Shown in pieces: positions 26,957-55,223 of a stretch of DNA of 64,000 bases. How positions within the stretch are numbered: the stretch's first letter is position 1; each line of letters starts with the position of its first letter. This DNA comes from an uncultured Rickettsiales bacterium (GTDB taxonomy: Bacteria > Pseudomonadota > Alphaproteobacteria > Rickettsiales > JABDBP01). Made by a program: the position numbers and the translations under genes. The stretch is taken from contig CAYVHI010000003.1 of assembly GCA_964450945.1 (NCBI GenBank), forward strand, positions 2,191-66,190, given 5' to 3'. The notes beneath the pieces were generated by a model. That model was not told the DNA's origin. It saw only the letters and a list, made by a program, of their open reading frames with translations, and did not search any database.

Positions 26957-28402
26957 ATGAAAAAACGCCTTAAAAATTCAATGCGTGGTTTTACATTAAT
27001 ACAGCTTGCTGTAATACTTACCATAGTTTCAGTTGTTTTGACCGGCTTTCTCAATATAGGCTCCTACCAGACAAAAAGACACGAAACTGCAAAAACAGAA
27101 AGAAAAATCGGTAAAGTCATAGAGGCAGTAAAAGAAAGCATATCTGGCCAGGTGAATTTGGGAGCGGGCGGGGCAGGCGGAACCGGGATAGGAATCCCAT
27201 GCCCGGCAGAACCGCTGCCAAAGAACCATGCTAATTTTGGAATATCAAACTGTAATTTTGATCCTTACTCAGTAAGGGATACTTATGGAATATTAACTGG
27301 TGCAGTTCCGGTAAACACCCTGAAGATACCTTATGATATGGCTTATGATGAAAACGGCAACCTTCTTGAATATGTTATGACATATGCATTAAGGACAAAT
27401 ACCGGGCTTGGTGGTGTGGGAGAAGGGAACATAACAGTTATGTTCCCTGGTAGTGATATTCCGGCAGAAGATAAGGCTGCACTTGTTGTTTTCGCTCACG
27501 GTGAAAATGGTACAGGGGCGATGGTTGAGGGCGGTGATGGTGAAAGGCACCCCGGTATAATAAACGATGAAGCAGCTATAGAAAATTTCAACTGTTCGGG
27601 AGGAATAAGTTCTAACAATATTGGCGGAATGCTATGTGGTGGCGGGTATAATAATATTTTCATCAAGCAGGCCCCTAATAAGTATCTAACGAAAAGCACG
27701 AAATTTGACCAGTTATTGGAATATCAGACAGTTTGCCATCTGCTTACCGGAAGGGATTGGGAAGGTTGTTTTGTAGGTTATGCTGATGCTGGCGGCTCTG
27801 ATGGTGGAGGCGCCGGTGGCGCTGCCGGCGGTGCTTCCGGATGCCCTGCAGGTGAAGGTTACTGGGGAGATCCATGTATGGGTAATGGCACACCAACTGG
27901 TGAAGGATATCCTGACCCGCCTGGGGCGCCGCCAGGATATACATGTTGCCAGGCAAGCTTCTACTGCGCCGACCCTAATACCACAAGCCCTACTACGCCG
28001 CCCGATAAATGTGTTGCTGACGTTGGCATACCGGGAGAATGTACATACTTTGATGATGTTGATACGAGTTGCCTTACCGGCGGTGCACCAGGCGGTGGTG
28101 CTGGTGGAGGTGGTTGTGTAACTCATGATGATTGTACTGGCGAACCGGGAAATGTTTGTTGTTTCTCCGGTACATGCATGACATGTTATGGCGGTCCATG
28201 TCAAATGGATAAAGATTGTTACAAAAGCAAAAACAACTTGGTATGCTGTGCAGGTACATGTGCTTATCAATCATGTACCTGTACACCTACTTGTACTGAT
28301 GGAACGCAATGCGGAAGCAGTACAGAGTGTGTTAACAACTGCTGCGACAGTTTTACAGGAACCTGCGTTACACCACCCCCAACAGGGATGTGCTTACCTT
28401 AA
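26957..28402 (+). CDS. Giant pilin-like protein (481 aa) with class-III signal and Gln at mature position +5; Gly- and Cys-rich C-terminal half
   Basis: 'MKKRLKNSMRG|FTLIQLAVILTIVSVV' prepilin motif. 'YDENGNLLEYV' echoes the pseudopilin DPWGN-x-Y motif. 34 Cys by my count, 20 of them in the last ~95 aa. Confidence 0.75.
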   Translation: MKKRLKNSMRGFTLIQLAVILTIVSVVLTGFLNIGSYQTKRHETAKTERKIGKVIEAVKESISGQVNLGAGGAGGTGIGIPCPAEPLPKNHANFGISNCNFDPYSVRDTYGILTGAVPVNTLKIPYDMAYDENGNLLEYVMTYALRTNTGLGGVGEGNITVMFPGSDIPAEDKAALVVFAHGENGTGAMVEGGDGERHPGIINDEAAIENFNCSGGISSNNIGGMLCGGGYNNIFIKQAPNKYLTKSTKFDQLLEYQTVCHLLTGRDWEGCFVGYADAGGSDGGGAGGAAGGASGCPAGEGYWGDPCMGNGTPTGEGYPDPPGAPPGYTCCQASFYCADPNTTSPTTPPDKCVADVGIPGECTYFDDVDTSCLTGGAPGGGAGGGGCVTHDDCTGEPGNVCCFSGTCMTCYGGPCQMDKDCYKSKNNLVCCAGTCAYQSCTCTPTCTDGTQCGSSTECVNNCCDSFTGTCVTPPPTGMCLP

Positions 28403-28407: not shown

Positions 28408-29601
28408 TTGATTATGAACAAATATAATAAAGCATTTACGATGGTGGAACTTTCTATTGTGCTGGGCATCATAGCGCTTTTGATTGGAACATCGGTATCG
28501 CTTGGCTCAGCGCGGATAAATGTTGAGAAAGCGCGCCAGACCCAGCAGAAGATGGAAGTGATAATAGAGAATCTTAAACGCTATATTTCAACCGGAGGTA
28601 ATTATATTGTAAACGGTGTTCCATGTCCGGCACGTGCCGACCTGCCTGATACAAACGCTGCTTTCGGGGTTGAAGATTGTGTATCAGGATCTGGCGCTTT
28701 TGCAAATGGTATATATATAGATGGTGGCCAGGCGACTTTCAGGGTTGGCCAGGTTCCTAACCGAACCATACTTCTGCCTGATGAATATGTGTATGATGGC
28801 TGGGGAAATAAATTTGACTGGGTTATGGATACACGCTACCGGCTGGGGTCAGATTTGCAGGGTGGTGCCGGCACAGAAACAAACCTTATTGAAATAAGGC
28901 CAACACAAGCTGGTGCAGCCATTACCCAAAGCGCAATATTCATGATCATGAGTCACGGCCCTTCCGGTCACGGGGCGTGGAAAAAGAACGGCAGCAGCCG
29001 TATTGACAAAAACGGCCTTATTGCTGATGTAGATAAAATAGAAAATACTTTATGCAATGCCGGTGTTGCAGTTGAGTGTGACGGTGCCGCCCAGAGGGTT
29101 TTTGTAATAAAAGCTGTAAACAGCACGTTTGATGATATTGCTATATATAAAATGCGCTGGCAGCTTATTCCTGCAGTTACCGGCGGTGGCATAATACGCC
29201 ACCCGATAGCGGCATGCAACCGCCCTAACCCTTCTGCTGCCGGTACTGACCAGACTTATGCCTGCCCTACTGACCCACGCAACTGCGTGCCAGCAGCAAT
29301 GGGCAATCAAATGGGTGCATATGCCAGCAGGTTTGTTAATAATGGTGTTAATGGCTGTACTAATGCAACTGGTTGCTGGGAACAATATGAAGCCAGGAAT
29401 GAAACGAATACTGCTATTGGTTCAGATACATATAGATATATGTGTATAGCCCCAGATGGCAGCCCTGTGTTATGCAAGGCAACAGTTAGCGCACTTGCGG
29501 ATGGTGTTGCAATGGCACCTGAAACATGGCTGGAAAGGAATGCTACAGTTACTCCTAACAGAGATAATACTGTAGGTGATTGTATCTGGTGGCAGTATTA
29601 A
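28408..29601 (+). CDS. Large pilin-like protein (397 aa), paralog of the preceding gene
   Basis: 'NKA|FTMVELSIVLGIIALLIG' has Ala at -1 and Glu at +5. Blocks shared with the 481-aa protein: 'G(I/V)PCPA...NA.FG(I/V).(N/D)C', 'YDGWGNKFDWVM', '(A/S)HG..G.GA'. 12 Cys. Confidence 0.75.
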   Translation: MIMNKYNKAFTMVELSIVLGIIALLIGTSVSLGSARINVEKARQTQQKMEVIIENLKRYISTGGNYIVNGVPCPARADLPDTNAAFGVEDCVSGSGAFANGIYIDGGQATFRVGQVPNRTILLPDEYVYDGWGNKFDWVMDTRYRLGSDLQGGAGTETNLIEIRPTQAGAAITQSAIFMIMSHGPSGHGAWKKNGSSRIDKNGLIADVDKIENTLCNAGVAVECDGAAQRVFVIKAVNSTFDDIAIYKMRWQLIPAVTGGGIIRHPIAACNRPNPSAAGTDQTYACPTDPRNCVPAAMGNQMGAYASRFVNNGVNGCTNATGCWEQYEARNETNTAIGSDTYRYMCIAPDGSPVLCKATVSALADGVAMAPETWLERNATVTPNRDNTVGDCIWWQY

Positions 29602-39184: not shown

Positions 39185-39208
39185 ATTAGGTAATAATAAA
39201 ATATTTAA

Positions 39209-39230: not shown

Positions 39231-39238
39231 ACACTGGC

Positions 39239-40315: not shown

Positions 40316-40316
40316 G

Positions 40317-44311: not shown

Positions 44312-46273
44312 GTGAATTTGACGGGTGACAACAAGGTAAAGCCAGGCGCGGAAGGTACAACGCCTGTTCAACCCGGTATGGTGAAGCCAGCTGGTGCTCC
44401 TGCCGCTGCGGCACCTGTTTCTCCGCCATCTGCTGCTGCAACTAAACCAGCAACTACTGCGCCAAAAGCTACACCTGGAATGCCTGCTTCTCCACAAGCG
44501 GCCGTTCCGCCAAAAGCACCAACTACAACAGCTCCTGCACCAGTGCAGAACCGGCCGCCGCAGGCGCCAGCAGATCCGACTAAAAAAATAACCAGCCATA
44601 TAGGCGAAGTTATGGTGGAGAAAGGTCTTATCTCAAAAGACCAGCTGGAAATTGCACTTAAGGAGCAAAAAGAGCAGGAAGGCACCAAACGCATGATGCT
44701 TGGAAGCATACTTGTAGAAATGGGTTTCATTACGGAAAGTGCGCTTGGCGAAGTTCTGGCTGAATCTACCGGTATTGAAAAATTCGATATGAAATCTGCT
44801 GTGCTTGATCCGAAGCTGGTCAAGCAAATCCCAAAGCATGTGGCAGAAAGATATAAGATGATACCTATAACGATTATCGGGGAAAGCATACAGATTGCCA
44901 TATCAGACGTTTATAACGTGCTGGCGATTGATCAGGCGCACAAGTATTTCCCAAAAAACTTCAAGATCGTTCCCGTTTATGCCGCTGAAGCGGAAATCTC
45001 GGAACTGATAGACCATTACTATGATTATGAAATGTCGGTTGACGGCATCTTAAAAGAAATCGAAACCGGAATAGCGGAAAAGAAAGAACTAAGCGGTGAA
45101 GCAGAAGGATATATCAACCCGACTGTACGCCTTGTGGATGCTCTTCTGGTTGATGCGATAAAACAAGGAGCTTCCGATATCCACCTTGAGCCGGAAGGAG
45201 CTTTCCTGCGCTTACGCTACCGTATTGACGGGCAGATGATGCAGATAAGAAGTTTTCATAATGATTACTGGCCGGCGATAGCCGTTCGTATAAAAATCAT
45301 GTCAGGCATGAACATCGCCGAGGTAAGGAACCCGCAGGATGGACGCATTGCCTATAATGTGCTTGGCAAAGAAGTGGATTTCCGTGTTTCCACCCAGCCG
45401 ACAGTTTACGGCGAAAATATCGTTATGCGTATCCTGGATAAGAAGAAATCACTGGTGACGCTTGATAAGCTTGGGTTCTCTGAACATAACGAAAAAGTAC
45501 TAAAGAAACTTCTGAAAAGACCAGAAGGAATTATAATAGTGACTGGTCCTACCGGTAGCGGTAAGACTACAACGCTTTATTCAATCCTCAGCTATATAAA
45601 TTCGGTTGATGTTAATATCATGACACTGGAAGATCCGGTGGAATACCAGTTGCCGATGATACGCCAATCAAGCGTGCGTGAAGGCGGGATGAATTTTTCT
45701 ACAGGTATGCGCTCACTTATGAGGCAGGACCCTGATATCATATTCGTGGGTGAGGTGCGTGATGAAGACACGGCAAATATGGCACTCCGAGCTGCCATGA
45801 CCGGCCACCAGGTGTTTACTACACTGCACACCAACGATGCGATAGGCGCTATACCACGCCTGGTGGATATTGGTGTGCAGCCGAGCCTTCTTGCCGGCTC
45901 ACTCATCTGCTGCATGGCGCAAAGGCTTGCAAGAAAATTATGCTTAAGTTGCAGGAAAGAAAAAATTGCAACACCTGAAGAATGTAAAATTCTAGGTGTT
46001 GACCCTAAATCTCCACCGAAGATATATGAGCGTGTAGGATGTGATAAATGTAATGGCGGGTATAAGGGCCGAGTCGCAGTTGCAGAGATACTGCCGGTTG
46101 ACAGGGAAATGGATGAATTAATAGCCAATCGCGCAACCCGCAAGGTTATACTTAACCATGCAATTTCAAACGGGTTTGTTACTATGGTGCAAGATGGCAT
46201 CAATAAAGTTTTATTAGGGCAGACTGACCTGGAAGAACTTATCAATACCGTTGATATGACCGAACGCCTATAG
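44312..46273 (+). CDS. pilB: Type IV pilus assembly ATPase (PilB/MshE-like) with ~95-aa Pro/Ala-rich N-terminal extension
   Basis: Walker A 'GPTGSGKTTTLYS', 'EDPVE', 'GEVRD', 'TGH.VF.TLHTND', and a tetra-Cys 'CLSC...CDKC'. The GTG start is uncertain; in-frame ATG alternatives lie downstream. Confidence 0.9.
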   Translation: MNLTGDNKVKPGAEGTTPVQPGMVKPAGAPAAAAPVSPPSAAATKPATTAPKATPGMPASPQAAVPPKAPTTTAPAPVQNRPPQAPADPTKKITSHIGEVMVEKGLISKDQLEIALKEQKEQEGTKRMMLGSILVEMGFITESALGEVLAESTGIEKFDMKSAVLDPKLVKQIPKHVAERYKMIPITIIGESIQIAISDVYNVLAIDQAHKYFPKNFKIVPVYAAEAEISELIDHYYDYEMSVDGILKEIETGIAEKKELSGEAEGYINPTVRLVDALLVDAIKQGASDIHLEPEGAFLRLRYRIDGQMMQIRSFHNDYWPAIAVRIKIMSGMNIAEVRNPQDGRIAYNVLGKEVDFRVSTQPTVYGENIVMRILDKKKSLVTLDKLGFSEHNEKVLKKLLKRPEGIIIVTGPTGSGKTTTLYSILSYINSVDVNIMTLEDPVEYQLPMIRQSSVREGGMNFSTGMRSLMRQDPDIIFVGEVRDEDTANMALRAAMTGHQVFTTLHTNDAIGAIPRLVDIGVQPSLLAGSLICCMAQRLARKLCLSCRKEKIATPEECKILGVDPKSPPKIYERVGCDKCNGGYKGRVAVAEILPVDREMDELIANRATRKVILNHAISNGFVTMVQDGINKVLLGQTDLEELINTVDMTERL

Positions 46274-46283
46274 TTATAATACC

Positions 46284-46400
46284 AACAGATTTTTTGCTTA
46301 TTACTTTGCCTTAGCTACGGGCTCGGTTTGCTCATGTACTATTAAAGTACATTCCGCCACCTCGCCTTGCACTTCCTAGTACTAAACAAAAAAATCTGTT
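46284..46400 (+). repeat. Family-1 nested-hairpin intergenic repeat, copy B (between pilB and pilC)
   Basis: Arms 'aacagatttttt' and 'aaaaaatctgtt', extendable with a bulge. Core is 'gctcatgtac-tattaaa-gtacattcc...cttgcacttcctagta'. Confidence 0.75.
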
Positions 46401-46427
46401 TTAGATAATGAATTAAAAATGTTTTAA

Positions 46428-47633
46428 ATGATCAATTATAAATATTCAGCAGTAAATGATCTTGGCAGAACCATCAAAGGAACAATGGCTGCCGCAAATT
46501 CTGATGATCTTGAAGCGCGCTTAAAAGAAATAGGCCTTGATATTATTGACTACAGGGAAATAGAGGACAAGAAGACCTCTTTCTTTGCCAAGAATATTAC
46601 GGCGCGCGATTTAATAATGTTCTGTATCCACATGGAACAGCTTGATAAAGCCGGGGTTCCGCTTATGGATGCGCTGGCTGACCTTCGCGATACTTCTGAT
46701 TCTCCCAGACTGAAAGAACTGATGGCGCAGATTTATGAATCAGTAAAGGGCGGAAAAATGCTTTCAGCCGCCCTGGCAGAACACCCGCGCATATTTGGCG
46801 AGGTGTTTACAGGTCTGGTTGCTGCTGGTGAGAAAACAGGTCATATGTCTGATTCATTTGGACACCTTTCTCATCACATAAAGTGGAATGAAGATATAAG
46901 ACGTAAAGTGAAAAAATCGATACGTTATCCGATAATACTTCTGGTGATGATGGTTGCCGTTATAAGTATAATGATGCTTTTCGTTGTGCCGCAGCTTTCC
47001 AGCTTCATGCTTTCGCAAGGATTTGACCTGCCACTGCATACACGCGCGCTTATATGGACATCTGACACATTTGTGAAATACTGGTATGCCATACTTGGCA
47101 TACCGACAGTAGCTGTTGTTGTTATAATAATGATGTACAGGAGTTCCGAAGATTTTGCCTATCAGGTGGATAAGATTGCGCTCAAAACACCATTTGTCGG
47201 AAAAAATATATCCAAGATTGATCTGGCGCGGTTCTCCCAGTTCTTTTCGGTGACTTTCATGAGCGGCATAGATATCCTTGAGTGTTTGAGGACAGCCCAG
47301 AATGTGGTGGGTAACCGCATCATAAAAGAAGCAATCCAATATGTGCGCCGCAGCGTTTCTGAAGGAAACTCGCTTACTTCATCCCTTAAAGTTTCCAACC
47401 AGTTTCCAAGCCTGGTAATAAGAATGTTTAAAATCGGGGAAGAAAGCGGCGAGATGGGAAAAGCCCTAGATAACATAAACTTTTTTTATGAACGTGAGGT
47501 CAATGATTCTGTTGAATCAACAGTAGAGTTGATACAACCGGCACTAACGATTATACTGGGTGGAGTTTTATTCTGGATTACGGCGGCGGTATTTGGCCCG
47601 CTTTATGATAGTTTCACTAAGATGTCATTTTAA
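46428..47633 (+). CDS. pilC: Type IV pilus platform protein (PilC/GspF family)
   Basis: 401 aa with two GspF repeats ('F...L..L..AG.P....L', 'GE.SG.....L') and three TM segments. Confidence 0.9.
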   Translation: MINYKYSAVNDLGRTIKGTMAAANSDDLEARLKEIGLDIIDYREIEDKKTSFFAKNITARDLIMFCIHMEQLDKAGVPLMDALADLRDTSDSPRLKELMAQIYESVKGGKMLSAALAEHPRIFGEVFTGLVAAGEKTGHMSDSFGHLSHHIKWNEDIRRKVKKSIRYPIILLVMMVAVISIMMLFVVPQLSSFMLSQGFDLPLHTRALIWTSDTFVKYWYAILGIPTVAVVVIIMMYRSSEDFAYQVDKIALKTPFVGKNISKIDLARFSQFFSVTFMSGIDILECLRTAQNVVGNRIIKEAIQYVRRSVSEGNSLTSSLKVSNQFPSLVIRMFKIGEESGEMGKALDNINFFYEREVNDSVESTVELIQPALTIILGGVLFWITAAVFGPLYDSFTKMSF

Positions 47634-47645
47634 CAACAGTGTCTA

Positions 47646-49232
47646 ATGTTTGGTAGCAGAAGTAAAAAATTTGTTCTTACAATAGGTGATGACGGAGTCA
47701 TCCTTACCTTTCTTGATGGCGCAAAACTTAAGGAGCGCTTGTTTTGCCAAGCACCTTCATCTGAAGACGCTGAAAAATTAAAAAAACTTCTGGAAAGGAA
47801 CCGTTCGGTCCCTATCTATATTTACATAGATCTGCTTGACCAGTCATTTTCCCAGCAGACGATTCCGCCGATAAGCGCCCTAAGAGTCAATGCACTTGTA
47901 AAAAGGAAGTTGCAAAGAGATTTCAACCCCAATGATATAAAAGCTGCCTTGAAACTTGACCGGTTAAAGACCGGTAGAAAGGACTGGATATATCTGTTTC
48001 TTTCAATCCCTTTTATTCCTCCGCTTTCAGAGTGGATTGAGATGATGCTCGAGATGCCCAATAAATTCGCGGGCATATATTCACTTCCCTTAGAAGTTGA
48101 GGCGCTGGTTAGAGATATAGACAAACTGCGCAAAGGTTCGGTGCCTGCCCAGTGGAAGATGCTGATAGCCCATAATAAGGTAGGGGGGATAAGGCAGGTT
48201 GTTTACCGTAACAATACTTTTATAATAAGCCGCCTTAACCAACCAGTTGGTGCTGCAGAAGCTGGGGTTATAGCGGGCAATATCGAGCAGGAGGCGGCAA
48301 ACACAATAGAGTTTATACGCCGTGTGGGATATGAAGAGAAGGATGGCCTGGATCTTTATGTTATTTGTGAGAAAGATATAAAATCACAACTTCAGTCATC
48401 ACGTATTACTGCTGTAAAAGATATAACTGTATTCACTCCGCATGAACTTGCAACCAAGCTTGGTATGAAAAATGTTACCAAGGAAGAAGATAAATACTCT
48501 GATATTCTTCTTGCCGCCCATTTCGGGAGTAAAAAAAGGAAGCATCTTCGTATTTCTACAAAAAATACCGAACAGCTTGATAAGCTGGATTTACTTGATA
48601 ATGCAGCAGTAGCTGGTGGTAGCGTTCTGGTTTTACTGATGCTTTTGCTGGGTGGGTATTATGTTGTTTCTCTCTACTCCATAATAAATGAGTTTAATCA
48701 GGCCAAGAAGTTAAGGGGCGAGAATGAAATTAAACTGGAAGAGATAAATAAGGAAAAACAGAAATTCTCTGTTGATATAAACGCGGTTATTGATACCGTC
48801 TATTATTATAATGTTTTCAGTAAAAATGAAGCATATCCGCTTAACATGCTGAGCCAGTTTTCTGAAGTTAAAGGCAAGGGAAATTCAGTAAAGACCGTGC
48901 GTGTAAAAATGGATGAGATGGAGAAATCTACTCCTCCGAATGCCTTTGGCAAAGATTTGGGTGTGATGCAGCCACGCGGTATAAACATAAACTACAGCAT
49001 GGAGCTGAAAACAAGTTCCAATACTATTGAACAACTGCTTGAATACACGGAAAACTTCACCAAAAAGATCCAGGAATCTTTCAAGGGCTATGATATAAAA
49101 TTTTCTAATTTGCCAAGCCGTGAAATTATTAACACAAATATAGGTGGAGGCGCATTACCAAATGGACCTGATCTTAGGAATGTAACCATACAGGTTATTA
49201 TAGAGACCGCCAAAAGTAAGGAGAAACAGTAA
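47646..49232 (+). CDS. Bitopic assembly protein, possibly PilM-PilN fusion / GspL-like
   Basis: About 330-aa cytoplasmic domain beginning 'FVLTIGDDGVILT', a single TM 'VAGGSVLVLLMLLLGGYYVV', then ~170 aa periplasmic. Sits right after pilC. Homology not verified. Confidence 0.45.
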   Translation: MFGSRSKKFVLTIGDDGVILTFLDGAKLKERLFCQAPSSEDAEKLKKLLERNRSVPIYIYIDLLDQSFSQQTIPPISALRVNALVKRKLQRDFNPNDIKAALKLDRLKTGRKDWIYLFLSIPFIPPLSEWIEMMLEMPNKFAGIYSLPLEVEALVRDIDKLRKGSVPAQWKMLIAHNKVGGIRQVVYRNNTFIISRLNQPVGAAEAGVIAGNIEQEAANTIEFIRRVGYEEKDGLDLYVICEKDIKSQLQSSRITAVKDITVFTPHELATKLGMKNVTKEEDKYSDILLAAHFGSKKRKHLRISTKNTEQLDKLDLLDNAAVAGGSVLVLLMLLLGGYYVVSLYSIINEFNQAKKLRGENEIKLEEINKEKQKFSVDINAVIDTVYYYNVFSKNEAYPLNMLSQFSEVKGKGNSVKTVRVKMDEMEKSTPPNAFGKDLGVMQPRGININYSMELKTSSNTIEQLLEYTENFTKKIQESFKGYDIKFSNLPSREIINTNIGGGALPNGPDLRNVTIQVIIETAKSKEKQ

Positions 49233-49903
49233 TGCAAGCGGTAAAACTGAAAAGGAAGCTTACTGCGGATTTTGTTTTTTTTGCCATTCTGGTTGGGGTG
49301 GGAATATTGATTAATATAATATTGTTTATCCAGACACGGAGCTACAAAAGCGATCTAGATAAAATAAAATCAGAAATAATAGCTCAGGAAGGCAAATATA
49401 ATAAAACCAGGGAAGGGTTGGGAGCAGCAACGTTATTGCTTGATGTGTATAAGGATATTCGTAAAGACAGGCATATCCAGACAGAATTTGTTGATGACAT
49501 AACATCGCGCATAAAAGAGGCAAGGGAGCCCCTGCAATTTTTGAAAGACAAGTACAGGCTCTCACAGCTTGATATTACAATCACCCCGCCTACCGCTATG
49601 AAAGAGGCTTTTCTAAAACGTGAAAATTATATTGCAAACGCAAGCAAGGTGACATTGCGTTTTTCTGGGCTTACTGATGAACTGGTTCTATCTTTCGTAC
49701 ATGAATTGTTTGATGAGTTTCCGGGTTATGTTTCGATAACATCACTCGACCTTGAAAAGGTTGGTGATATAAATGAGCAGACTGTGGCAACAATAAAAAC
49801 CGGTGTTTTCCCTATACTGGTAAAAGGTATATTAGTTTTTGAGTGGATAAAAGTTGGTAGTCCGAAGACTGCTGAAACAAAAGATACTAATAAGGCTCCA
49901 TAA
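49232..49903 (+). CDS. Bitopic protein, PilO/GspM-like by topology
   Basis: N-terminal TM 'FVFFAILVGVGILINIILFI', a coiled-coil segment, then a ~130-aa domain. Start overlaps the upstream stop (TAATG). Confidence 0.4.
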   Translation: MQAVKLKRKLTADFVFFAILVGVGILINIILFIQTRSYKSDLDKIKSEIIAQEGKYNKTREGLGAATLLLDVYKDIRKDRHIQTEFVDDITSRIKEAREPLQFLKDKYRLSQLDITITPPTAMKEAFLKRENYIANASKVTLRFSGLTDELVLSFVHELFDEFPGYVSITSLDLEKVGDINEQTVATIKTGVFPILVKGILVFEWIKVGSPKTAETKDTNKAP

Positions 49904-49904
49904 T

Positions 49905-50792
49905 ATGTCAAAACTTACAAAAATGAATATTTGGAAATGTCTGTATCTGGTGATTTGCTTTTTATTTCTAATGCCGGCCTATGCACAGGAAAAACAACCT
50001 CTAAAACCAGAAGAAGAAATAAGCTCTGATGAATATAGCCTGCGTTCGCTTTACAGCAAAGGAAAGGTTTCAAAAGCTTTCTCCCTGAAAGAAGAAAGTG
50101 ACGATAAAGAGAAAGCAAAAGATTCAAAAGAAAAGCAGCAGGAAGAAGATAAAAAGCAGCAGGAAGTAAAAAATAAGGATATTCCTGATGCTGATGAAAA
50201 AAGAAGCAAGGCCGTTGATTATGCCAACCTTCCTTATAAGGGCAGCCTTATGTATGATGAAAGATCGCTCAACGCCCTTTATTCTTTCCTACAGGGCAAT
50301 GTTGCCGAATTCAGTAATGATGAGAGCCTTTTATCAAGCTTTGATGAGCTGCCTTCCATAGCACCCGCTTTTTTCCTGAATTCAGTTATATTCATTTCTC
50401 CTTCAGAATGGTCTGTATGGGTGGATAATAGTAAGTTCAGGCCTAATATTGGAGGCGAGCAGATAACTGCAGAAAAAGTGGATAAGGAATTTGCAGTATT
50501 CAAATGGAAGCCAAAAAAACTGGATTACATTTCCCCTAACTGGCAGGCTAATCTTGTGGCAGCAGATATTGCAAAAAACAAACTTGTAAAAGACAGGCAA
50601 GGGCTGATCTCCAAAGATGGAAATATTTTTGTTGATGCGATAAACAACGAAGTATATTTTCGCCTGGCGCCGAATCAGACCTTTGTTTCGCGCACCATGG
50701 AGATTGCAGAAGGTTATAAGGATGATTTTACCATTCCTACCCAAAGCAATCTTGGGTTCACTGAACAGCTTGATATAAAACAGGGCCAATAG
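49905..50792 (+). CDS. Secreted protein with K/E-rich linker (pilus-operon member, unknown family)
   Basis: Start set at 'MSKLTKMNIWKCLYLVICFLFLMPAYA|QE' (signal peptide), 1 nt after the upstream stop. Confidence 0.45.
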   Translation: MSKLTKMNIWKCLYLVICFLFLMPAYAQEKQPLKPEEEISSDEYSLRSLYSKGKVSKAFSLKEESDDKEKAKDSKEKQQEEDKKQQEVKNKDIPDADEKRSKAVDYANLPYKGSLMYDERSLNALYSFLQGNVAEFSNDESLLSSFDELPSIAPAFFLNSVIFISPSEWSVWVDNSKFRPNIGGEQITAEKVDKEFAVFKWKPKKLDYISPNWQANLVAADIAKNKLVKDRQGLISKDGNIFVDAINNEVYFRLAPNQTFVSRTMEIAEGYKDDFTIPTQSNLGFTEQLDIKQGQ

Positions 50793-50796: not shown

Positions 50797-51567
50797 ATGA
50801 ATTATCCACTGGAAATTAACAATCTGAATAAAAGTTTTGGTGATAAGAAAGTTTTGAATAATATTTCCCTGAAAGTAAAACTGGGAGAAATTTTTGGTCT
50901 TGTGGGCCTGAACGGTGCTGGCAAGACAACGCTGATAAAAATAATTCTTGGATTCCTAAACCAGGATTCTGGCACTGCTGATATTTTCGGTATGAGTGCA
51001 AAACAGACAAATGCACGTAAAAATCTTTCATATCTGCCGGAAAAATTCAACCCTTCGCAGTTCTTAAAAGGAAAGGAATTTCTCTCTTTCTCACTTTCCT
51101 ATTTCGGGAAAAGTTTCGATCTTGACCTTGCTGGTGAAAAGGCTGATGAACTTGGCCTGAACCCTGATGTTCTTGAGCACAGAGTTGGTAGGTATTCAAA
51201 AGGTATGGGCCAGAAACTCGGCCTTGTTTCGGCACTTCTGACCGAGGCGCCGCTCCTGCTGCTTGATGAGCCAATGAGTGGCCTTGACCCAAGCGCAAGG
51301 ATATTGCTTAAGGATAACCTGCTAAAATACAAAAAAGAGGGAAAGACGGTCTTTTTCAGCTCCCATATTCTGGCTGATATTGAAGAGATATGCGACCGCA
51401 TAGGCATACTGCATAATAATGAAATGGTTTTTGTTGGCACTGCCGCTGAATTTAAAAAGAAATATCCCGCTGATAGCCTTGAACGCTCTTTCCTGAGAGC
51501 AATTAATTTTAAGTCAACTATCGAAAAAAAACCGGCAAAAAAGAAATCTAGAGCATATTCTAGCTAA
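50797..51567 (+). CDS. ABC transporter ATP-binding protein
   Basis: Walker A 'GLNGAGKTT', signature 'YSKGMGQKLGL', Walker B 'LLLLDEP', H-loop 'SSHIL'. Confidence 0.9.
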   Translation: MNYPLEINNLNKSFGDKKVLNNISLKVKLGEIFGLVGLNGAGKTTLIKIILGFLNQDSGTADIFGMSAKQTNARKNLSYLPEKFNPSQFLKGKEFLSFSLSYFGKSFDLDLAGEKADELGLNPDVLEHRVGRYSKGMGQKLGLVSALLTEAPLLLLDEPMSGLDPSARILLKDNLLKYKKEGKTVFFSSHILADIEEICDRIGILHNNEMVFVGTAAEFKKKYPADSLERSFLRAINFKSTIEKKPAKKKSRAYSS

Positions 51568-51650: not shown

Positions 51651-52793
51651 TTAAAAATCTTCGTTCTTTGGTTTTTGCGGGGTTGTCTGAGCGGGTATGT
51701 AATTGGACTTGCTGAGTGAGGGGTTACCAGATTTTTCCTGGCTTATCTTGAGGCGTAGGTTACCAGGATTATCAGATTCGTTGAGTGCTGTTTCTTCAGT
51801 TATTTTACCTTTCAAGAAAAGATCCAGCAGATATTGATCAAAACTTATCATTCCCTGGTCTTTATTTTTTTCCATCATTTCCTTAATTTCTTTAATCTTA
51901 CCTTCTTCAATAAGTTTTTTGACCAAACCCTGATTAAGCATTATCTCTATAGCCAAACACCGCATGCCGGAAATGCTTGGAACCAAGCGCTGGGATATGA
52001 CAGCCTTAAGGTTTTGTGAAAGGGTGAGTAATGTCTGTTTTGACATTTCTTCAGGGAAGAGATTGATGATTCGCTCTACAGCCTGGTTTGAGTTATTGGC
52101 ATGCAGGGTTGCCACGCATAAATGCCCAGTCTCACAAAACTGGATGGCACTTTCCATTGTCTCACGATCACGTATTTCACCTATGACTATGACATCAGGA
52201 GTCTGCCGCAATGCATTCTTAAGAGCGGTGCCATAAGAATATGTATCTATACCGATCTCACGCTGGGTGAAGATGCAGTTTTTATGCTCGTGGATGAATT
52301 CAATGGGGTCTTCAACAGTAATTATATGGCCGGAGCCATACTGGTTCCTATAGCCTAACATCGCCGCAAGGGAAGTTGATTTACCAGCTCCGCTGGCACC
52401 GACCATAAGGACAAGGCCTCGCTTTTCCATGATGAGTTTACCGTAAATCTCAGGCAGTCCAAGTGATTCGAAAGTAGGTATTTCCACGCGTATTCGGCGT
52501 ATTACAATTCCGCGGTTATGCTGCTGGTGAAAGAAATTAGCGCGGAAACGCTTGCCGTGATAGGAATGGATGGCGACATTCAATTCCAGTGTGGATTCAA
52601 ACTCGCTCCTCTGGCTTTCATTCAGCATTTCAGCTATGAATGAATTTATATCTTCATTGGTAAGTTTTGCATTGCCGGCATGAACGATTTTATTTTCTAT
52701 CCGCAAGCTCGGAGGATAACCTACTGTCAGGTAAATATCGGAAGCCTCCTTATTTACCATTTCCAGTAAAAGATCTGCAATTTTTACTGTCAA
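51651..52793 (-). CDS. pilU: PilT-family retraction ATPase, PilU-like
   Basis: 'ASDIYLTVGYPP', Walker A 'GASGAGKSTSLAAM', 'EDPIEF', 'GEIRD.ET', 'TGHL..ATLHAN'. Confidence 0.85.
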   Translation of the reverse strand: MTVKIADLLLEMVNKEASDIYLTVGYPPSLRIENKIVHAGNAKLTNEDINSFIAEMLNESQRSEFESTLELNVAIHSYHGKRFRANFFHQQHNRGIVIRRIRVEIPTFESLGLPEIYGKLIMEKRGLVLMVGASGAGKSTSLAAMLGYRNQYGSGHIITVEDPIEFIHEHKNCIFTQREIGIDTYSYGTALKNALRQTPDVIVIGEIRDRETMESAIQFCETGHLCVATLHANNSNQAVERIINLFPEEMSKQTLLTLSQNLKAVISQRLVPSISGMRCLAIEIMLNQGLVKKLIEEGKIKEIKEMMEKNKDQGMISFDQYLLDLFLKGKITEETALNESDNPGNLRLKISQEKSGNPSLSKSNYIPAQTTPQKPKNEDF

Positions 52794-53903
52794 TTAAAAC
52801 TCCATTTTTTTGCTTTGTATCATGTGGGGATTTTGTTGTGCTGGTGCTGTGCCGCCTGGCTTTGATTCATCTTCACCAGAATCAAGATTTAACACCGATC
52901 TTGCAGCCTGCGCGGTGATTACGCCCTGCTGCATAAGATTGTTTACACAATCTTTCATGGTTTGCATGCCAACCTTTGAGCCAACCTGCATAAGTGAATA
53001 TATTTGCGGAACCTTACCTTCGCGTATCATGTTACGTATTGCCGGAGTACCAAGCAGGATTTCATGTGCCGCCACGCGGCCGCTGTTATCTGCCTTCTTG
53101 ATAAGCGTTTGTGCAATTACAGCTTCCAGAGTACTACCTAACATGGACATGATGAGGGCTTTACTCTGTGCTGGGAAAGCATCGATAATCCTGTCTACAG
53201 TTTTTGCAGCAGAGTTGGTGTGTAGTGTTCCCATAACCAAGTGCCCGGTTTCTGCGGCAGTCAGCGCCAACTGTATGGTTTCAAGGTCGCGCATTTCGCC
53301 CACCAGAATTACATCCGGATCTTCACGCAGTGCGCTTTTAAGGGCCCTGGCAAAAGACATCGTGTTACTGCCAAGCTCACGCTGGTTTATCAGAGCTTTA
53401 TTGGATTTATGGACAAACTCTACCGGATCTTCGACTGTGAGGATATGTTTTGGAAAATTTTTATTTATGTGGTCAATAATAGCTGCAAGAGTTGTTGATT
53501 TACCGCTTCCCGTAGGGCCGGTAACCAGAACAAGACCCTTGTGTAAAGAAGCAATTTTCTGGAGGATTGGCGGGGTATTAAGCTCCTGCAATGTCAGTAT
53601 GCGGTCCGGAATGGCACGAAAAGCAGCCGATGGACCATTAAGTGTGGTAAAAGCATTTACCCGGAAACGCAGTTCGCTGAACTGGATGGCAAAATCTAAC
53701 TCAAGATCCCTTTCATAATCGGCGCGCTGATTCTCTGTCATTATCGAATAAAGAAGTGATTTCACCGCATCTGCCGTAAGGACATCAAGTTTAAGGTGAA
53801 CGATTTCGCCGTTTATGCGCATAATCGGCGGCTGGCCGGAAGAAAGATGTAGATCAGAAGCCTTATTTTTCTTGGTCAACTGTAGTAATTCAAGTACTTC
53901 CAT
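52794..53903 (-). CDS. pilT: Twitching motility ATPase PilT
   Basis: 'ASDLHLSSG.PP..R..G', Walker A 'GPTGSGKSTTLAA', 'EDPVEF', 'GEMRDLETI', 'TGHLV.GTLHT', 'AHEIL'. Confidence 0.92.
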   Translation of the reverse strand: MEVLELLQLTKKNKASDLHLSSGQPPIMRINGEIVHLKLDVLTADAVKSLLYSIMTENQRADYERDLELDFAIQFSELRFRVNAFTTLNGPSAAFRAIPDRILTLQELNTPPILQKIASLHKGLVLVTGPTGSGKSTTLAAIIDHINKNFPKHILTVEDPVEFVHKSNKALINQRELGSNTMSFARALKSALREDPDVILVGEMRDLETIQLALTAAETGHLVMGTLHTNSAAKTVDRIIDAFPAQSKALIMSMLGSTLEAVIAQTLIKKADNSGRVAAHEILLGTPAIRNMIREGKVPQIYSLMQVGSKVGMQTMKDCVNNLMQQGVITAQAARSVLNLDSGEDESKPGGTAPAQQNPHMIQSKKMEF

Positions 53904-53912
53904 AATATGCCC

Positions 53913-55223
53913 CTATCTGACTGCGCTTTTATTTAATAGAAAAGTCACTCTGCTCTGAATCTTATCAACTGAATCAGGCAAATCATAACCGCTTCTGGCC
54001 GCCTCTATAACCTGGTTATAGAAATTGGCTGCTTCTTTAAAATTTCCAAGTCTGTCATAAGCTATGGCAAGGTGGTATTTATATATGGCATTATCAGGAG
54101 AGAGCATTATAGCCCTAATGAGGAATTTTGTTGCCTCCGGATAATTGCCGTTCTTTAAGTGGATAATACCCATCTGCGCCGGAAGGATGCTGAACTCAGA
54201 ATTTTCCTTATATAATTTTTCGAACTCCCCTATTGCCTCATTTGGAAATTGCTGGCTTAGAAGCACCAGGTAATTATTAACTGCAACCTTGTTTCTTGGT
54301 TCGGCCTTCAATACTTCTCTATAAAACTGGCGCGCCTGTTCATATTGCTGATTCTGCTGGTAAGCAACTGCAAGACCAAGCATTGTACGCCTGTTTTTTA
54401 TATCAAGCTCAAGCGCTTCCTTAAAGAATTCTATGGCAATCTCATTCTGGCCTGCAAGCAGGGCATCCTGTGCATCCTGCAGGATTTTTGCCAGATATTC
54501 ATAATCTTCGTTGACCTCGATTTCGAGCATATTTACGCCCTGTTCATATAGGTTTTCCTGCGATTCAGGACTTTGTTCAGTTCCTGGAGCATTTGCTGAT
54601 GCAGTACCTTCACCAGGAATCTCCTCTTCATTTTCAGGAGGTATGGCTCCTGGAGCATTTTCGGTAGGTTGTGCAAATGGAGATACAAAATTACCGTGCT
54701 CTATAGTGAAAGACTCAAACTCTTTCTTCTCATTAACTTTTTTCAGACTTGAACCAAGAGCTTCATAGTCATTCTTTTCTTTTGCATTTTCTTCCTTGGT
54801 GGTTATTTTCTGTTTTTTATCCTTATTATTCTTTACATCAGATTTGCTTTTTTGTTTCTCTGGCTCTTTTGCTTCCGGGCTTTTTTCTGACTGCTGCTTG
54901 CGTTTTTCTTCATATGGCTTGGTATTTGTGTTTACTTCCTTTTCAATTTCGGCAAGAAATTCATCAATATCATCCTCATCTTCATAATTAATCAGAAGAA
55001 GTGGAGTCTTAACATCTGATACCTCAAGATTATCGGCTGGTTTCTGTGGTTCAGGTTTGCTGGCTTGTAAATCACTGTTTCCTGTGTAGAGGAAAATAAT
55101 GATTGAAATAAGAGCGGTCAGTTTCCAAAACATGCCTTCCGGCACTTTTGAAAAAAAGAAGCGCACCAGAAGGAAACGTCTGTAAAACCTGAGTTTGCGG
55201 TAAAGAATATTGCTTTCCATCAC
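53913..55223 (-). CDS. TPR-repeat protein with N-terminal membrane anchor and K/E-rich region (PilF/MshN-like position)
   Basis: C-terminal half has multiple TPR-like repeats ('A...F.EAL..D..N', 'YHLAIAYD.LG....A...Y'). The start may be the internal 'MFWKLTALISIIIF' (55133). Confidence 0.7.
   Translation of the reverse strand: MMESNILYRKLRFYRRFLLVRFFFSKVPEGMFWKLTALISIIIFLYTGNSDLQASKPEPQKPADNLEVSDVKTPLLLINYEDEDDIDEFLAEIEKEVNTNTKPYEEKRKQQSEKSPEAKEPEKQKSKSDVKNNKDKKQKITTKEENAKEKNDYEALGSSLKKVNEKKEFESFTIEHGNFVSPFAQPTENAPGAIPPENEEEIPGEGTASANAPGTEQSPESQENLYEQGVNMLEIEVNEDYEYLAKILQDAQDALLAGQNEIAIEFFKEALELDIKNRRTMLGLAVAYQQNQQYEQARQFYREVLKAEPRNKVAVNNYLVLLSQQFPNEAIGEFEKLYKENSEFSILPAQMGIIHLKNGNYPEATKFLIRAIMLSPDNAIYKYHLAIAYDRLGNFKEAANFYNQVIEAARSGYDLPDSVDKIQSRVTFLLNKSAVR

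What the first reader, a model, noticed from the sequence alone, without database searches (positions are those of the whole stretch)
44312..50792. pilB-pilC followed by three non-canonical assembly genes instead of recognisable pilMNOP
After clear PilB-like and PilC genes come three tightly coupled ORFs (overlapping or 1-12-nt junctions). By topology they fill the roles of the inner-membrane alignment complex. The first is a 528-aa bitopic protein with a ~330-aa cytoplasmic domain, a TM and ~170 aa periplasmic, like GspL or a PilM-PilN fusion. The second is a 223-aa bitopic PilO/GspM-like protein. The third is a 295-aa secreted K/E-rich protein. I cannot see the usual sequence motifs of PilM/N/O/P in any of them. 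The locus also includes pilT, pilU and a TPR protein on the opposite strand (51651-55223). With the lipoprotein (MshL-style) secretin and pilD 18 kb away, this is a complete retractile T4P-like machine with a divergent, hybrid T4aP/MSHA/T2SS-like core.
Basis: partly seen in the sequence, partly recalled or inferred. Interest (0 to 1): 0.6.

Follow-up and report, generated by a model that had tools for sequence, protein, structure and literature searches.

The report
Divergent MSHA-like pilus alignment genes
The three unannotated genes after pilB-pilC are very diverged versions of the proteins that link a type IV pilus motor to its outer-membrane pore, so a pilus that standard annotation would call incomplete in these Rickettsiales-like bacteria is probably complete.

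Summary
PilB (44312-46273) and PilC (46428-47633) are followed by three tightly coupled ORFs of 528, 223 and 295 aa. None of them matches Pfam or NCBIfam.

- **O3 (528 aa).** The AlphaFold model (pLDDT 83) has a PilM/FtsA/GspL-type actin-fold cytoplasmic domain, one TM helix, a coiled coil and a ferredoxin-like periplasmic domain. This is a PilM-PilN fusion, as in fused MshI or GspL.
- **O4 (223 aa).** The model (pLDDT 93) finds PilO structures first in the PDB. O4 is paralogous to the periplasmic half of O3 (hhalign 94%).
- **O5 (295 aa).** It has a signal peptide, an acidic/basic linker and a conserved beta-rich domain. The start of that domain aligns with MshK (hhalign 91%) and weakly with GspB. 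No structure could be computed.

The secretin scores best as MshL, and the ATPase carries an MshEN domain. PilT, PilU, PilD and pilin-like genes are present.

The order pilB-pilC-O3-O4-O5-ABC ATPase is conserved in about 80 alphaproteobacterial MAG loci. In some metagenome contigs the whole system forms one cluster that also includes an ABC permease.

Verdict: this is a sequence-divergent, rearranged, MSHA-related retractile type IV pilus. It is a new variant of a known kind, of modest interest.

The parts
44312..46273 (+). Extension ATPase, PilB/MshE-like, with a Pro/Ala-rich N-terminal extension of about 95 aa and an MshEN domain
   Evidence: - Pfam T2SSE 413 bits and MshEN 50.7 bits.
- NCBIfam c-di-GMP motif NF053729 scores 57 bits against a cut-off of 38. 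PilB (512 bits) and GspE (492 bits) are both below their cut-offs.
- In both the Aeromonas and the Legionella record, the best tblastn match to this protein is MshE.
46428..47633 (+). Inner-membrane platform protein, PilC/MshG/GspF-like
   Evidence: - Pfam T2SSF 162 bits over two stretches.
- NCBIfam GspF 301 bits and PilC 245 bits, both below their cut-offs.
47646..49232 (+). O3: PilM-like actin-fold cytoplasmic domain, one TM, a coiled coil and a PilN-like periplasmic domain. It has the same fused domain layout as fused MshI or GspL.
   Evidence: - No Pfam or NCBIfam hit.
- AF2 pLDDT 83.
- Foldseek: PilM 2.9e-9; FtsA, PulL and EpsL at about 1e-7 to 1e-8.
- Family profile against M. xanthus PilN: E=0.019.
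- hhalign against the MshI2/PilN-domain reference: 61%, E=8e-5.
- One TM at about 321-345.
49232..49903 (+). O4: bitopic PilN/PilO-type protein that takes the PilO/MshJ/GspM role
   Evidence: - No Pfam or NCBIfam hit.
- AF2 pLDDT 93: a long TM-plus-coiled-coil helix, then a ferredoxin-like domain.
- Foldseek top hits are PilO: 3jc8_Oa at 2e-3, 2rjz_A at 4.8e-3 with TM 0.51, and 5uvr.
- hhalign against the O3 family: 94%, E=1.2e-7.
- hhalign against MshI2: 85-91%. Against MshJ: 48-61%.
- 972 cluster representatives at E<=1e-3.
49905..50792 (+). O5: secreted periplasmic protein with a K/E/D-rich linker and a conserved C-terminal beta-rich domain of about 120 aa. Proposed MshK/PilP/GspB-type connector to the secretin.
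   Evidence: - Signal peptide ending AYA|Q.
- hhalign against the MshK reference: 88-91%, E about 1e-6 to 3e-6. Against MshI1, MshI2 and MshJ: below 1%.
- Pfam T2SSB is matched sub-threshold by 9 of 74 relatives and by the consensus at E=0.024.
- GspB 4wfw: E=0.25.
- Alternative FN3-like hits.
- No structure model was possible.
50797..51567 (+). ABC ATPase of the ABC-2 exporter type, the last gene of the operon
   Evidence: - ABC_tran 90 bits. Best NCBIfam matches are DrrA and GldA-like.
- A 4-nt spacer after O5.
- Detected in 74 of 83 related loci, and directly downstream of O5 wherever both are present.
- In the same cluster as the permease in L086, L090 and L095.
51651..52793 (-). PilU-like retraction ATPase
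   Evidence: NCBIfam pilT_fam 413.5 bits against a cut-off of 319. Synteny is conserved.
52794..53903 (-). PilT retraction ATPase
   Evidence: NCBIfam pilT_fam 466.7 bits against a cut-off of 319. Synteny is conserved.
53913..55223 (-). Membrane-anchored or secreted TPR protein, a candidate MshN or PilW/PilF equivalent
   Evidence: - Many TPR families match.
- Best NCBIfam match is PilW at 61 bits, below its cut-off.
- It lies next to pilT and pilU in about 40 loci, and between the secretin and PilB in L104 and L106.
24216..26027 (-). MshL-like secretin, probably a lipoprotein
   Evidence: - Pfam Secretin and Secretin_N_2.
- NCBIfam MshL 199.6 bits against a cut-off of 250. GspD scores 105 and PilQ 71.
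- Cys20 aligns with the lipobox Cys of the Aeromonas and Legionella MshL.
26112..26867 (-). Prepilin peptidase PilD
   Evidence: Pfam A24_N_bact 104 bits and Peptidase_A24 57 bits.
26957..28402 (+). Large pilin-like protein (481 aa) with a Gly- and Cys-rich C-terminus
   Evidence: Class III signal-like N-terminus MRG|FTLIQLAV.
28408..29601 (+). Large pilin-like protein (397 aa)
   Evidence: N-terminus NKA|FTMVELSIVLG. NCBIfam prepilin N-terminal domain TIGR02532 scores 17.8 bits against a cut-off of 16.3.
23301..24062 (-). ABC-2-like permease, the likely partner of the operon's ABC ATPase
   Evidence: - Polytopic membrane protein with a weak ABC2_membrane_2 hit.
- Directly follows the secretin here and in L086-L091, L095, L098, L101 and L105, and lies one gene (u239) further along in L112.
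22581..23300 (-). u239: TM-anchored protein of unknown family that travels with the permease
   Evidence: No Pfam or NCBIfam hit. The order secretin-permease-u239 is conserved.
21486..22574 (-). AraC-family regulator at the end of the secretin block
   Evidence: HTH_18 and HTH_AraC. Conserved after u239 in L086, L087, L089-L091 and L095.

Best explanation
The segment is the motor and inner-membrane operon of an MSHA-related, retractile type IV pilus. The extension ATPase (MshE/PilB-like, with an MshEN regulatory domain) and the platform protein (PilC/MshG-like) come first. The next three genes encode the alignment subcomplex in a form too diverged for family HMMs to recognise.

- **O3** is a single polypeptide that does the work of PilM plus PilN, as fused MshI or GspL does. 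Its cytoplasmic actin-like domain would dock the ATPase and the platform. Its TM helix, coiled coil and ferredoxin-like domain reach into the periplasm.
- **O4** is its PilO/MshJ/GspM-type partner. It would pair with the periplasmic half of O3 through the coiled coils and the ferredoxin-like domains.
- **O5** is a soluble periplasmic connector. Its C-terminal beta domain, which opens with an MshK/GspB/HR-type motif, would bind the N-terminal domains of the MshL-like secretin. Its linker region would hold on to O3/O4.

Together they would align the motor with the secretin, so that pilins processed by PilD are polymerised by PilB and depolymerised by PilT/PilU.

**Shown here:** the gene content, the folds of O3 and O4, the paralogy between them, remote homology to the MSH components, and the conserved synteny.

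**Inferred:** all protein-protein contacts, the secretin-binding role of O5, and regulation by c-di-GMP.
For: **O3.**
- AF2 model with pLDDT 83. It has an actin-like N-terminal half with a 1C-type insertion, a helix at 306-371, and an alpha-beta-beta-alpha-beta-beta C-terminal domain.
- The best Foldseek PDB hits are PilM (2.9e-9), FtsA, and PulL/EpsL (about 1e-7). Generic actin-fold kinases and PPX are 1000-fold weaker.
- The family profile hits M. xanthus PilN over the TM and periplasmic region at E=0.019.
- It also hits the Legionella PilN-domain MSH protein.
- hhalign against the MshI2 reference gives 61%.

**O4.**
- AF2 pLDDT 93. PilO structures rank 1, 2, 3 and 7 in the PDB search.
- hhalign against the O3 family: 94%, E=1.2e-7, aligning O4 36-166 with O3 351-482.
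- hhalign against MshI2: 85-91%. Against MshJ: 48-61%.

**O5.**
- hhalign against a 22-sequence MshK reference: 88-91%, E about 1e-6 to 3e-6. The other three MSH references serve as controls and stay below 1%.
- Recurrent sub-threshold T2SSB/GspB hits fall on the same motif.
- Genuine MshK proteins themselves reach only sub-threshold T2SSB/T2SSC scores.

**System context.**
- The secretin scores best as MshL.
- MshEN is present, and the c-di-GMP motif model scores above its cut-off.
- PilT and PilU both score above their cut-off.
- PilD and two pilin-like genes are present.

**Conservation.**
- 105 species-level genomes carry O3 relatives.
- The order PilB-PilC-O3-O4-O5-ABC recurs across about 80 loci.
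- L086, L090 and L095 carry everything in one co-directional cluster.
- L104 and L106 show secretin-TPR-PilB-PilC-O3-O4, which links the arrangement to the MSH order L-N-E-G.
- Fused MshI forms exist in canonical MSH loci, for example the 480-aa ORF in L148.
Against: - No family HMM recognises any of the three proteins.
- The Foldseek E-values for O4 are weak (2e-3 to 2.5e-2; none at or below 1e-3). Phage tail-terminator folds follow closely.
- O4 scores higher against the PilN-type reference than against the PilO-type reference. Calling it the PilO equivalent therefore rests on position and on the structure hits.
- O3's cytoplasmic domain shows no significant profile similarity to MshI1 (hhalign 1.6%).
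- O5 has no structure model. A domain-only profile hits titin and fibronectin FN3 domains (8oty_A E=0.0013), so its beta domain could be FN3-like rather than HR-like.
- O5 is not a lipoprotein, unlike PilP.
- No MshM is present in the window.
- No experiment exists.
Confidence: 0.78

Rival explanations
1. The operon encodes a type II secretion-like machine, with a pseudopilus that expels proteins. In this reading O3, O4 and O5 are GspL, GspM and GspC/GspB equivalents rather than pilus alignment proteins.
For: - The fused O3 architecture is exactly that of GspL, and its cytoplasmic domain matches PulL/EpsL with the highest target-normalised TM-scores (0.61-0.64).
- PilC scores best against the GspF model (301 bits against 245 for PilC).
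- O5's only Pfam or PDB similarity to a secretion-system protein is to GspB.
- In Acinetobacter records the best match to the ATPase is GspE.
Against: - Two retraction ATPases, PilT and PilU, both above the family cut-off, are conserved next to the operon. Classical T2SS lack them (established knowledge).
- The secretin scores 200 bits against MshL and 105 against GspD.
- The window contains no gspG-K-type pseudopilin cluster, only two very large pilin-like genes.
- The ATPase carries an MshEN domain.
Confidence: 0.1
2. These are ordinary PilM/N/O/P or MshI/J/K proteins in a standard operon, missed only because of compositional drift. In that case nothing distinguishes the system.
For: - Profile-profile comparison does recover MshI2, MshJ and MshK relationships.
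- Some genuine MSH components are also poorly recognised by Pfam and are annotated 'hypothetical' in Legionella.
Against: - hhalign probabilities are only 61-91%, with E-values no better than 1e-6.
- BLAST finds no MshI/J/K similarity.
- The gene order differs from mshIJKLMNEGF.
- MshM is absent from the window.
- PilT and PilU, an ABC ATPase and a permease are integrated into the conserved cluster.
Confidence: 0.08
3. O3-O5 are not pilus parts. They would be accessory subunits of the ABC transporter whose ATPase follows them, for example a periplasm-spanning exporter scaffold.
For: - The ABC ATPase is translationally coupled to O5 and conserved there.
- A permease and an unknown TM protein are conserved in the same cluster.
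Against: - O3 and O4 have the specific PilM/PilN/PilO folds.
- L104 and L106 carry O3 and O4 directly after PilB-PilC, but both contigs end at O4, so the ABC gene's presence or absence there cannot be judged.
- The coupling to PilC upstream is just as tight (12 nt).
Confidence: 0.04

Closest known systems
MSHA (MSH-type) type IV pilus, mshIJKLMNEGF. Compared here with the Aeromonas caviae and Legionella adelaidensis loci and about 45 metagenome loci.
   Same: - MshL-like lipoprotein secretin.
- MshE-type ATPase with an MshEN domain.
- MshG-like platform protein.
- A PilM-PilN-type protein that can be fused (MshI).
- A PilO/PilN-type partner (MshJ).
- A small secreted protein with an HR-like motif (MshK).
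- A TPR protein (MshN).
- Remote profile homology of O3, O4 and O5 to MshI2, MshJ and MshK.
   Different: - The I/J/K equivalents follow E-G instead of preceding L.
- The secretin is unlinked in this window.
- No MshM is present in the window.
- pilT and pilU are adjacent.
- O5 is 2-3 times longer than MshK, with a long charged linker and an extended domain.
- An ABC ATPase, a permease, u239 and an AraC regulator are integrated into the cluster.
- Sequence identity is too low for BLAST or family HMMs.
T4aP alignment subcomplex PilM-PilN-PilO-PilP (P. aeruginosa, M. xanthus, Thermus)
   Same: - Actin-like PilM fold.
- Bitopic PilN/PilO pair with a coiled coil and a ferredoxin-like domain.
- A periplasmic connector.
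- PilT/PilU retraction.
   Different: - PilM and PilN are fused here.
- None of the three ORFs matches the PilM_2, PilN, PilO or PilP HMMs.
- O5 has a type I signal peptide, not a lipobox.
- The secretin is MshL-like, not PilQ-like.
T2SS GspL-GspM-GspC (and GspB)
   Same: - GspL is the same kind of fusion: an actin-like cytoplasmic domain, a TM and a ferredoxin-like periplasmic domain.
- GspM is a PilO-like partner.
- The GspC-HR and GspB domains contact the secretin.
- O5's only Pfam or PDB similarity to a secretion-system protein is to GspB.
   Different: - No T2SSL, T2SSM or T2SSC HMM reaches significance; the only trace is a sub-threshold T2SSM hit (E=0.023) on the O4 consensus TM and coiled coil.
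- Retraction ATPases are present.
- No pseudopilin cluster.
- The secretin is closer to MshL than to GspD.
Myxococcus xanthus pilG-pilH-pilI (ABC transporter genes inside a T4aP cluster)
   Same: ABC transporter genes are embedded in a type IV pilus gene cluster (PMC6060248). From my own memory, not checked here: pilH mutants lack pili (Wu et al. 1998).
   Different: No sequence comparison with PilGHI could be made here. In the window the ATPase and the permease are split between two loci.

Membership tests
PilM (Pfam PF11104 PilM_2 / TIGR01175) | Sequence match to the family HMM above its threshold | tested here: not met
   O3, its 26 relatives and the family consensus give no PilM hit at E<=0.1 to 10.
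PilM (Pfam PF11104 PilM_2 / TIGR01175) | Actin-like ATPase fold of the PilM/FtsA type | tested here: met
   AF2 pLDDT above 90 over residues 10-300. Foldseek gives PilM 2ych_A at 2.9e-9 and the PilM 5eou/5eoy entries at about 3e-8 to 1.5e-7.
PilM (Pfam PF11104 PilM_2 / TIGR01175) | A separate cytoplasmic protein that binds the N-terminal peptide of PilN | tested here: not met
   In O3 the domain is covalently fused to the TM and periplasmic part. All 80 or so relatives are 495-690 aa, so all are fused.
PilN (Pfam PF05137) | Sequence match to the family HMM above its threshold | tested here: not met
   No PF05137 hit. Genuine MshI2 proteins do reach it.
PilN (Pfam PF05137) | Remote homology to PilN-type proteins, with a bitopic layout of coiled coil plus ferredoxin-like domain | tested here: inconclusive
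   - M. xanthus PilN E=0.019.
- hhalign against the MshI2 reference: 61%, E=8e-5.
- The architecture itself is met.
PilO (Pfam PF04350) / GspM (PF04612) | Sequence match to the family HMM above its threshold | tested here: not met
   No PilO hit for O4, for 68 relatives or for the consensus. T2SSM reaches only E=0.023, and only on the TM and coiled coil.
PilO (Pfam PF04350) / GspM (PF04612) | PilO-type fold: an N-terminal TM, a coiled coil and a ferredoxin-like domain | tested here: met
   AF2 pLDDT 93. PilO entries 3jc8_Oa, 2rjz_A/B and 5uvr take ranks 1, 2, 3 and 7, with probabilities 0.97-1.00 but E-values of only 2e-3 to 2.5e-2.
PilP (Pfam PF04351) | Lipoprotein signal (lipobox Cys) | tested here: not met
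   The O5 signal peptide ends AYA|QE. The family consensus ends ALA|QE.
PilP / GspC-HR / GspB / MshK domain | Small beta domain of the HR type that binds the secretin N0 domain | tested here: inconclusive
   - hhalign against MshK: 88-91% over 50-73 columns.
- T2SSB is sub-threshold. GspB 4wfw E=0.25.
- Competing FN3 hits exist.
- No structure model is available, and binding was not testable.
GspL (T2SS) | Match to the T2SSL/GspL_C HMMs and a T2SS gene context (gspC-M, pseudopilins) | tested here: not met
   No such HMM hits. The context contains pilT, pilU and an MshL-like secretin, with no pseudopilin cluster.
MSHA pilus system | MshL-type secretin | tested here: inconclusive
   TIGR02519 is the best model at 199.6 bits, but that is below its cut-off of 250.2.
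MSHA pilus system | MshE-type ATPase with an MshEN c-di-GMP-binding domain | tested here: met
   PF05157 scores 50.7 bits against a cut-off of 23.1. NF053729 scores 57 bits against a cut-off of 38. Ligand binding itself was not testable.
MSHA pilus system | Canonical operon mshI-J-K-L-M-N-E-G-F, including MshM | tested here: not met
   The order here is E-G-I-J-K-ABC. The secretin lies 17 kb away, and tblastn finds no MshM in the window.

The most novel reading that the evidence does not exclude
This is a distinct, widespread alphaproteobacterial subtype of type IV pilus machine. At least 105 species carry it, and the O4 family has several hundred 50%-identity clusters. In this subtype an ABC transporter is an obligate, co-evolving component. 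The transporter consists of the ATPase coupled to the alignment genes, plus the permease and u239 coupled to the secretin. It might energise or gate secretin or pilus assembly, or export a pilus-associated substrate. It would not be a passenger.
Probability: 0.25. Interest if true: 0.55.

Novelty: new variant of a known kind. Interest (0 to 1): 0.33.

Why it matters
- **Genome reconstructions.** Surveys of basal Rickettsiales and Holosporales score type IV pili from pilA/B/C/D/Q/T-type markers. In their MacSyFinder table (PMC9352585 supplement) pilM/N are detected in only a few of the genomes tabulated, and another study describes 'incomplete type IV pili' (PMC9992710). Assigning these three 'hypothetical' families to the alignment subcomplex suggests the machines are complete. 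It also supplies three profiles (A1, A5, A6) that could be added to TXSScan-type models.
- **Evolution of the machine.** The loci document how far PilM/N/O/P-type proteins can drift while the fold and the operon logic are kept. They also give a second, independent example of an ABC transporter embedded in a pilus cluster.
- **Limits.** No new mechanism or new class of system is implied.

Tried and rejected
- **Family scans.** Pfam and NCBIfam scans of the three ORFs, of all family members and of the consensus sequences gave nothing above threshold.
- **O4 against PDB sequences.** The O4 family profile returned only coiled-coil noise.
- **Homologue searches.** The word-indexed search found only 3 homologues of O4 and 5 of O5. 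Families were therefore built from neighbouring genes in related loci and from the exhaustive search.
- **Structure prediction.** Both prediction jobs were then spent on O3 and O4, so O5 has no model.
- **Single MSH sequences.** hhalign against single MshI/J/K sequences was too weak. Reference alignments from metagenome MSH loci were needed.
- **Secretin scan.** A metagenome scan with the single secretin found nothing. The three-sequence secretin alignment worked.
- **ATPase placement.** Placing PilB by best hits was not decisive. It is 35-39% identical to MshE, GspE and PilB-like proteins alike, and no proper phylogeny was made.
- **FN3 reading of O5.** I considered it because of the titin hits. 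I could neither confirm nor exclude it. I prefer the MshK/HR reading because of the specific hhalign result, the gene position and the GspB hits.
- **Rfam.** No RNA families were found in the window.

Full report
**1. Observation**

The ORF map matches the finding.

| Gene | Coordinates | Length | Key evidence |
|---|---|---|---|
| PilB-like ATPase | 44312-46273+ | 653 aa | T2SSE 413 bits, MshEN 50.7 bits |
| PilC-like platform | 46428-47633+ | 401 aa | T2SSF |
| O3 | 47646-49232+ | 528 aa | no family hit |
| O4 | 49232-49903+ | 223 aa | no family hit |
| O5 | 49905-50792+ | 295 aa | no family hit |

- The junctions are a 12-nt gap, a TAATG overlap and a 1-nt spacer.
- A hydropathy scan gives one TM in O3 (about 321-345), one N-terminal TM in O4, and a signal peptide ending AYA|Q in O5. 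O5 residues 28-135 are 40% K/E/D.
- Neither Pfam nor NCBIfam recognises O3, O4 or O5.
- On the opposite strand lie PilU, PilT (both above the NCBIfam pilT_fam cut-off) and a TPR protein.
- A secretin (24216-26027-) and PilD (26112-26867-) lie 17-18 kb upstream.

**2. Not a chance arrangement**

- O3 has 26 relatives in the protein collection, none with a Pfam domain.
- Relatives of O3 occur in 105 species-level genomes, all MAGs. Nearly all of the 80 listed are labelled Rickettsiales, Alphaproteobacteria or simply Pseudomonadota.
- In the 80 loci fetched, the order PilB-PilC-O3-O4-O5-ABC ATPase recurs with short or overlapping junctions. It is usually convergent with TPR-PilT-PilU.
- An exhaustive profile search with the O4 family found 972 cluster representatives at E<=1e-3 and 496 at E<=1e-10. 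These are large but unannotated families.
- One related locus, L019, is MAG UBA6187. Schön et al. 2022 place it in the Athabascaceae and infer type IV pili as ancestral to Rickettsiales (PMC9352585).

**3. O3**

- The AlphaFold2 model, built on the 26-sequence alignment, has a mean pLDDT of 83 and above 90 through residues 10-300.
- The N-terminal 300 residues form an actin-like two-lobed fold with an inserted subdomain.
- A continuous helix at 306-371 contains the TM segment and a coiled coil.
- Residues about 378-520 form an alpha-beta-beta-alpha-beta-beta domain.
- The best Foldseek PDB hits are PilM (2ych_A, 2.9e-9), an uncharacterised Bacteroides actin-like protein, FtsA, P. aeruginosa and M. 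xanthus PilM, and the cytoplasmic domains of PulL and EpsL (about 1e-7). Generic sugar kinases and PPX are orders of magnitude weaker.
- The family profile weakly matches M. xanthus PilN across the TM and periplasmic region (E=0.019).
- It also picks out the PilN-domain protein of a Legionella MSH locus.
- O3 is therefore a PilM-like and PilN-like fusion, the architecture of GspL and of fused MshI. A 480-aa fused MshI occurs in a canonical MSH locus, L148.
- A D-x-G motif (D15, G17) is invariant in the family. I could not establish whether the domain binds nucleotide.

**4. O4**

- The AlphaFold2 model, built on 129 sequences from the exhaustive search, has pLDDT 93. It shows one long helix (2-75: TM plus coiled coil) and a ferredoxin-like alpha/beta domain.
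- PilO structures take ranks 1, 2, 3 and 7 in the PDB search: 3jc8_Oa at 2e-3, 2rjz_A at 4.8e-3 with TM 0.51, and 5uvr. No hit reaches E<=1e-3, and phage tail-terminator proteins follow closely.
- Profile-profile comparison shows that O4 and the periplasmic half of O3 are paralogues. hhalign gives 94%, E=1.2e-7, aligning O4 36-166 with O3 351-482. PilN and PilO, and GspL and GspM, have the same relationship (established knowledge).

**5. O5**

- The conserved part is a C-terminal domain of about 120 residues. It opens with the motif YPxFxLxSIxYxxPxDWxxWxNGxKI...V..V....V...W.
- Three independent weak signals fall on this motif:
  - GspB/OutB 4wfw at E=0.25;
  - Pfam T2SSB matched by 9 of 74 relatives, best E=0.0026;
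  - the family consensus matching T2SSB at E=0.024.
- Genuine MshK proteins reach only the same kind of sub-threshold T2SSB/T2SSC/Y4YQ_C scores.
- Against a 22-sequence MshK reference alignment from canonical MSH loci, the O5 profiles give hhalign 88-91%, E about 1e-6 to 3e-6. Against MshI1, MshI2 and MshJ they stay below 1%.
- Caveat: the domain-only profile also hits titin and fibronectin FN3 domains (8oty_A E=0.0013).
- The domain is therefore certainly beta-rich. It is probably an extended HR-type domain, but an FN3-like fold is not excluded.
- O5 is not a lipoprotein. In that respect it resembles MshK rather than PilP.

**6. What kind of pilus**

- The secretin scores 199.6 bits against the MshL model (cut-off 250), 105 against GspD and 71 against PilQ.
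- Its Cys20 aligns with the lipobox Cys of the Aeromonas and Legionella MshL.
- The ATPase carries MshEN, and the MshE-related c-di-GMP motif model scores above its cut-off.
- In both the Aeromonas and the Legionella record, the best tblastn match to the window's ATPase is MshE. Overall, however, it is 35-39% identical to MshE, GspE and PilB-like proteins alike.
- PilC scores best against GspF.
- BLAST finds no MshI/J/K and no MshM in the window.
- O3 and O4 relate remotely to the MSH components. O3 against MshI2 gives 61%. O4 against MshI2 gives 85-91%, and against MshJ 48-61%.
- Denise et al. 2019 report PilMNOP homologues in MSH and T2SS (PMC6668835).

**7. One system, and a wider gene set**

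- A metagenome scan with a secretin alignment gave three groups of loci.
- **Group 1.** The closest relatives of this secretin (L086, L087, L089-L091, L095) carry, on one strand and tightly packed, O3-O4-O5-ABC ATPase-TPR-PilD-PilT-PilU-secretin-ABC-2 permease-u239-AraC.
- The window's three separate loci (21.5-29.6 kb, 44.3-51.6 kb and 51.7-55.2 kb) are therefore parts of one conserved system.
- The ABC ATPase (50797-51567), the permease (23301-24062), u239 (22581-23300) and the AraC regulator (21486-22574) belong to that system's conserved gene set.
- M. xanthus pilGHI is a precedent for ABC genes inside a pilus cluster (PMC6060248).
- **Group 2.** L104 and L106 show secretin-TPR-PilB-PilC-O3-like-O4-like. 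This is the MSH order L-N-E-G followed by the I/J equivalents. L105 retains an MshM-like ATPase.
- **Group 3.** These are canonical MSH loci.
- This series makes a rearranged MSH-related origin the most economical reading.

**8. Mechanism (inferred)**

- PilB and PilC would dock on the cytoplasmic actin-like domain of O3.
- O3 and O4 would pair through their coiled coils and ferredoxin-like domains around the platform.
- O5 would bridge to the N-terminal domains of the MshL-like secretin.
- PilD-processed pilins would be added by PilB and removed by PilT/PilU.
- c-di-GMP may gate extension through the MshEN domain.
- None of these contacts was tested here.

**9. Verdict**

- The system is a sequence-divergent, rearranged MSHA-related type IV pilus: a new variant of a known kind.
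- Its main value is annotation. It fills the 'missing' alignment genes of pili reported in basal Rickettsiales and Holosporales.
- The most open point is the role of the conserved ABC transporter.

Noticed in passing
window 50797-51567 (+), 23301-24062 (-), 22581-23300 (-), 21486-22574 (-); L086, L090, L095: An ABC ATPase is translationally coupled to O5 and conserved there (detected in 74 of 83 loci). An ABC-2-like permease, a TM-anchored unknown protein (u239) and an AraC regulator follow the secretin. In several metagenome contigs all of these lie in one co-directional pilus cluster. The arrangement resembles M. xanthus pilGHI. The function is unknown.
   Followed up: partly
window 26957-28402 (+) and 28408-29601 (+): Two unusually large pilin-like genes (481 and 397 aa) lie divergent from pilD. 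The first has Gln instead of Glu at position +5 (MRG|FTLIQ) and a Gly- and Cys-rich C-terminal half. No small major pilin gene was seen anywhere in the window.
   Followed up: partly
window 37375-41642 (-/+): A second, CpaC-like secretin (40317-41642) and a CpaD-like gene (39704-40498) lie next to three ORFs with no family hit (37375-38274, 38330-39280, 39239-39703). No Tad ATPase or platform gene was found among the ORFs scanned in the window. This may be a remnant or a split Tad system.
   Followed up: no
window 44312-44600 (+): PilB begins with a Pro/Ala-rich low-complexity extension of about 95 aa, ahead of the MshEN domain. In the first MshEN motif, His replaces the usual leading Arg (HIGEVMVEKGLI...).
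   Followed up: no
L104:758-8948, L106:4-8125, L105:3201-15833: These metagenome relatives have the order secretin-TPR-PilB-PilC-O3-like-O4-like. L105 keeps an MshM-like AAA ATPase next to TPR-PilD-secretin-permease-u239. They look like intermediates between canonical MSH loci and the window's arrangement.
   Followed up: partly
A3 members, e.g. L008:9656-11758, L007:12270-14003: O5 relatives range from 232 to 701 aa. The N-terminal linker is hypervariable, K/E-rich in some and P/A-rich in others. A few long members match beta-flower domains (PF21785, 3e-5).
   Followed up: no
L084:9066-11758 (Legionella adelaidensis plasmid NZ_LR134433.1): In this canonical MSH locus the MshI1, MshJ and MshK equivalents are annotated 'hypothetical protein'. 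In Pfam they reach only sub-threshold scores, so poor recognition of these components is not unique to the window's lineage.
   Followed up: yes
window 1-64000: No Rfam family reaches its gathering score anywhere in the window. The pilus genes are interspersed with housekeeping genes: guaA, uvrB, glyA, ribD, pyrD, gyrB and yidC.
   Followed up: yes
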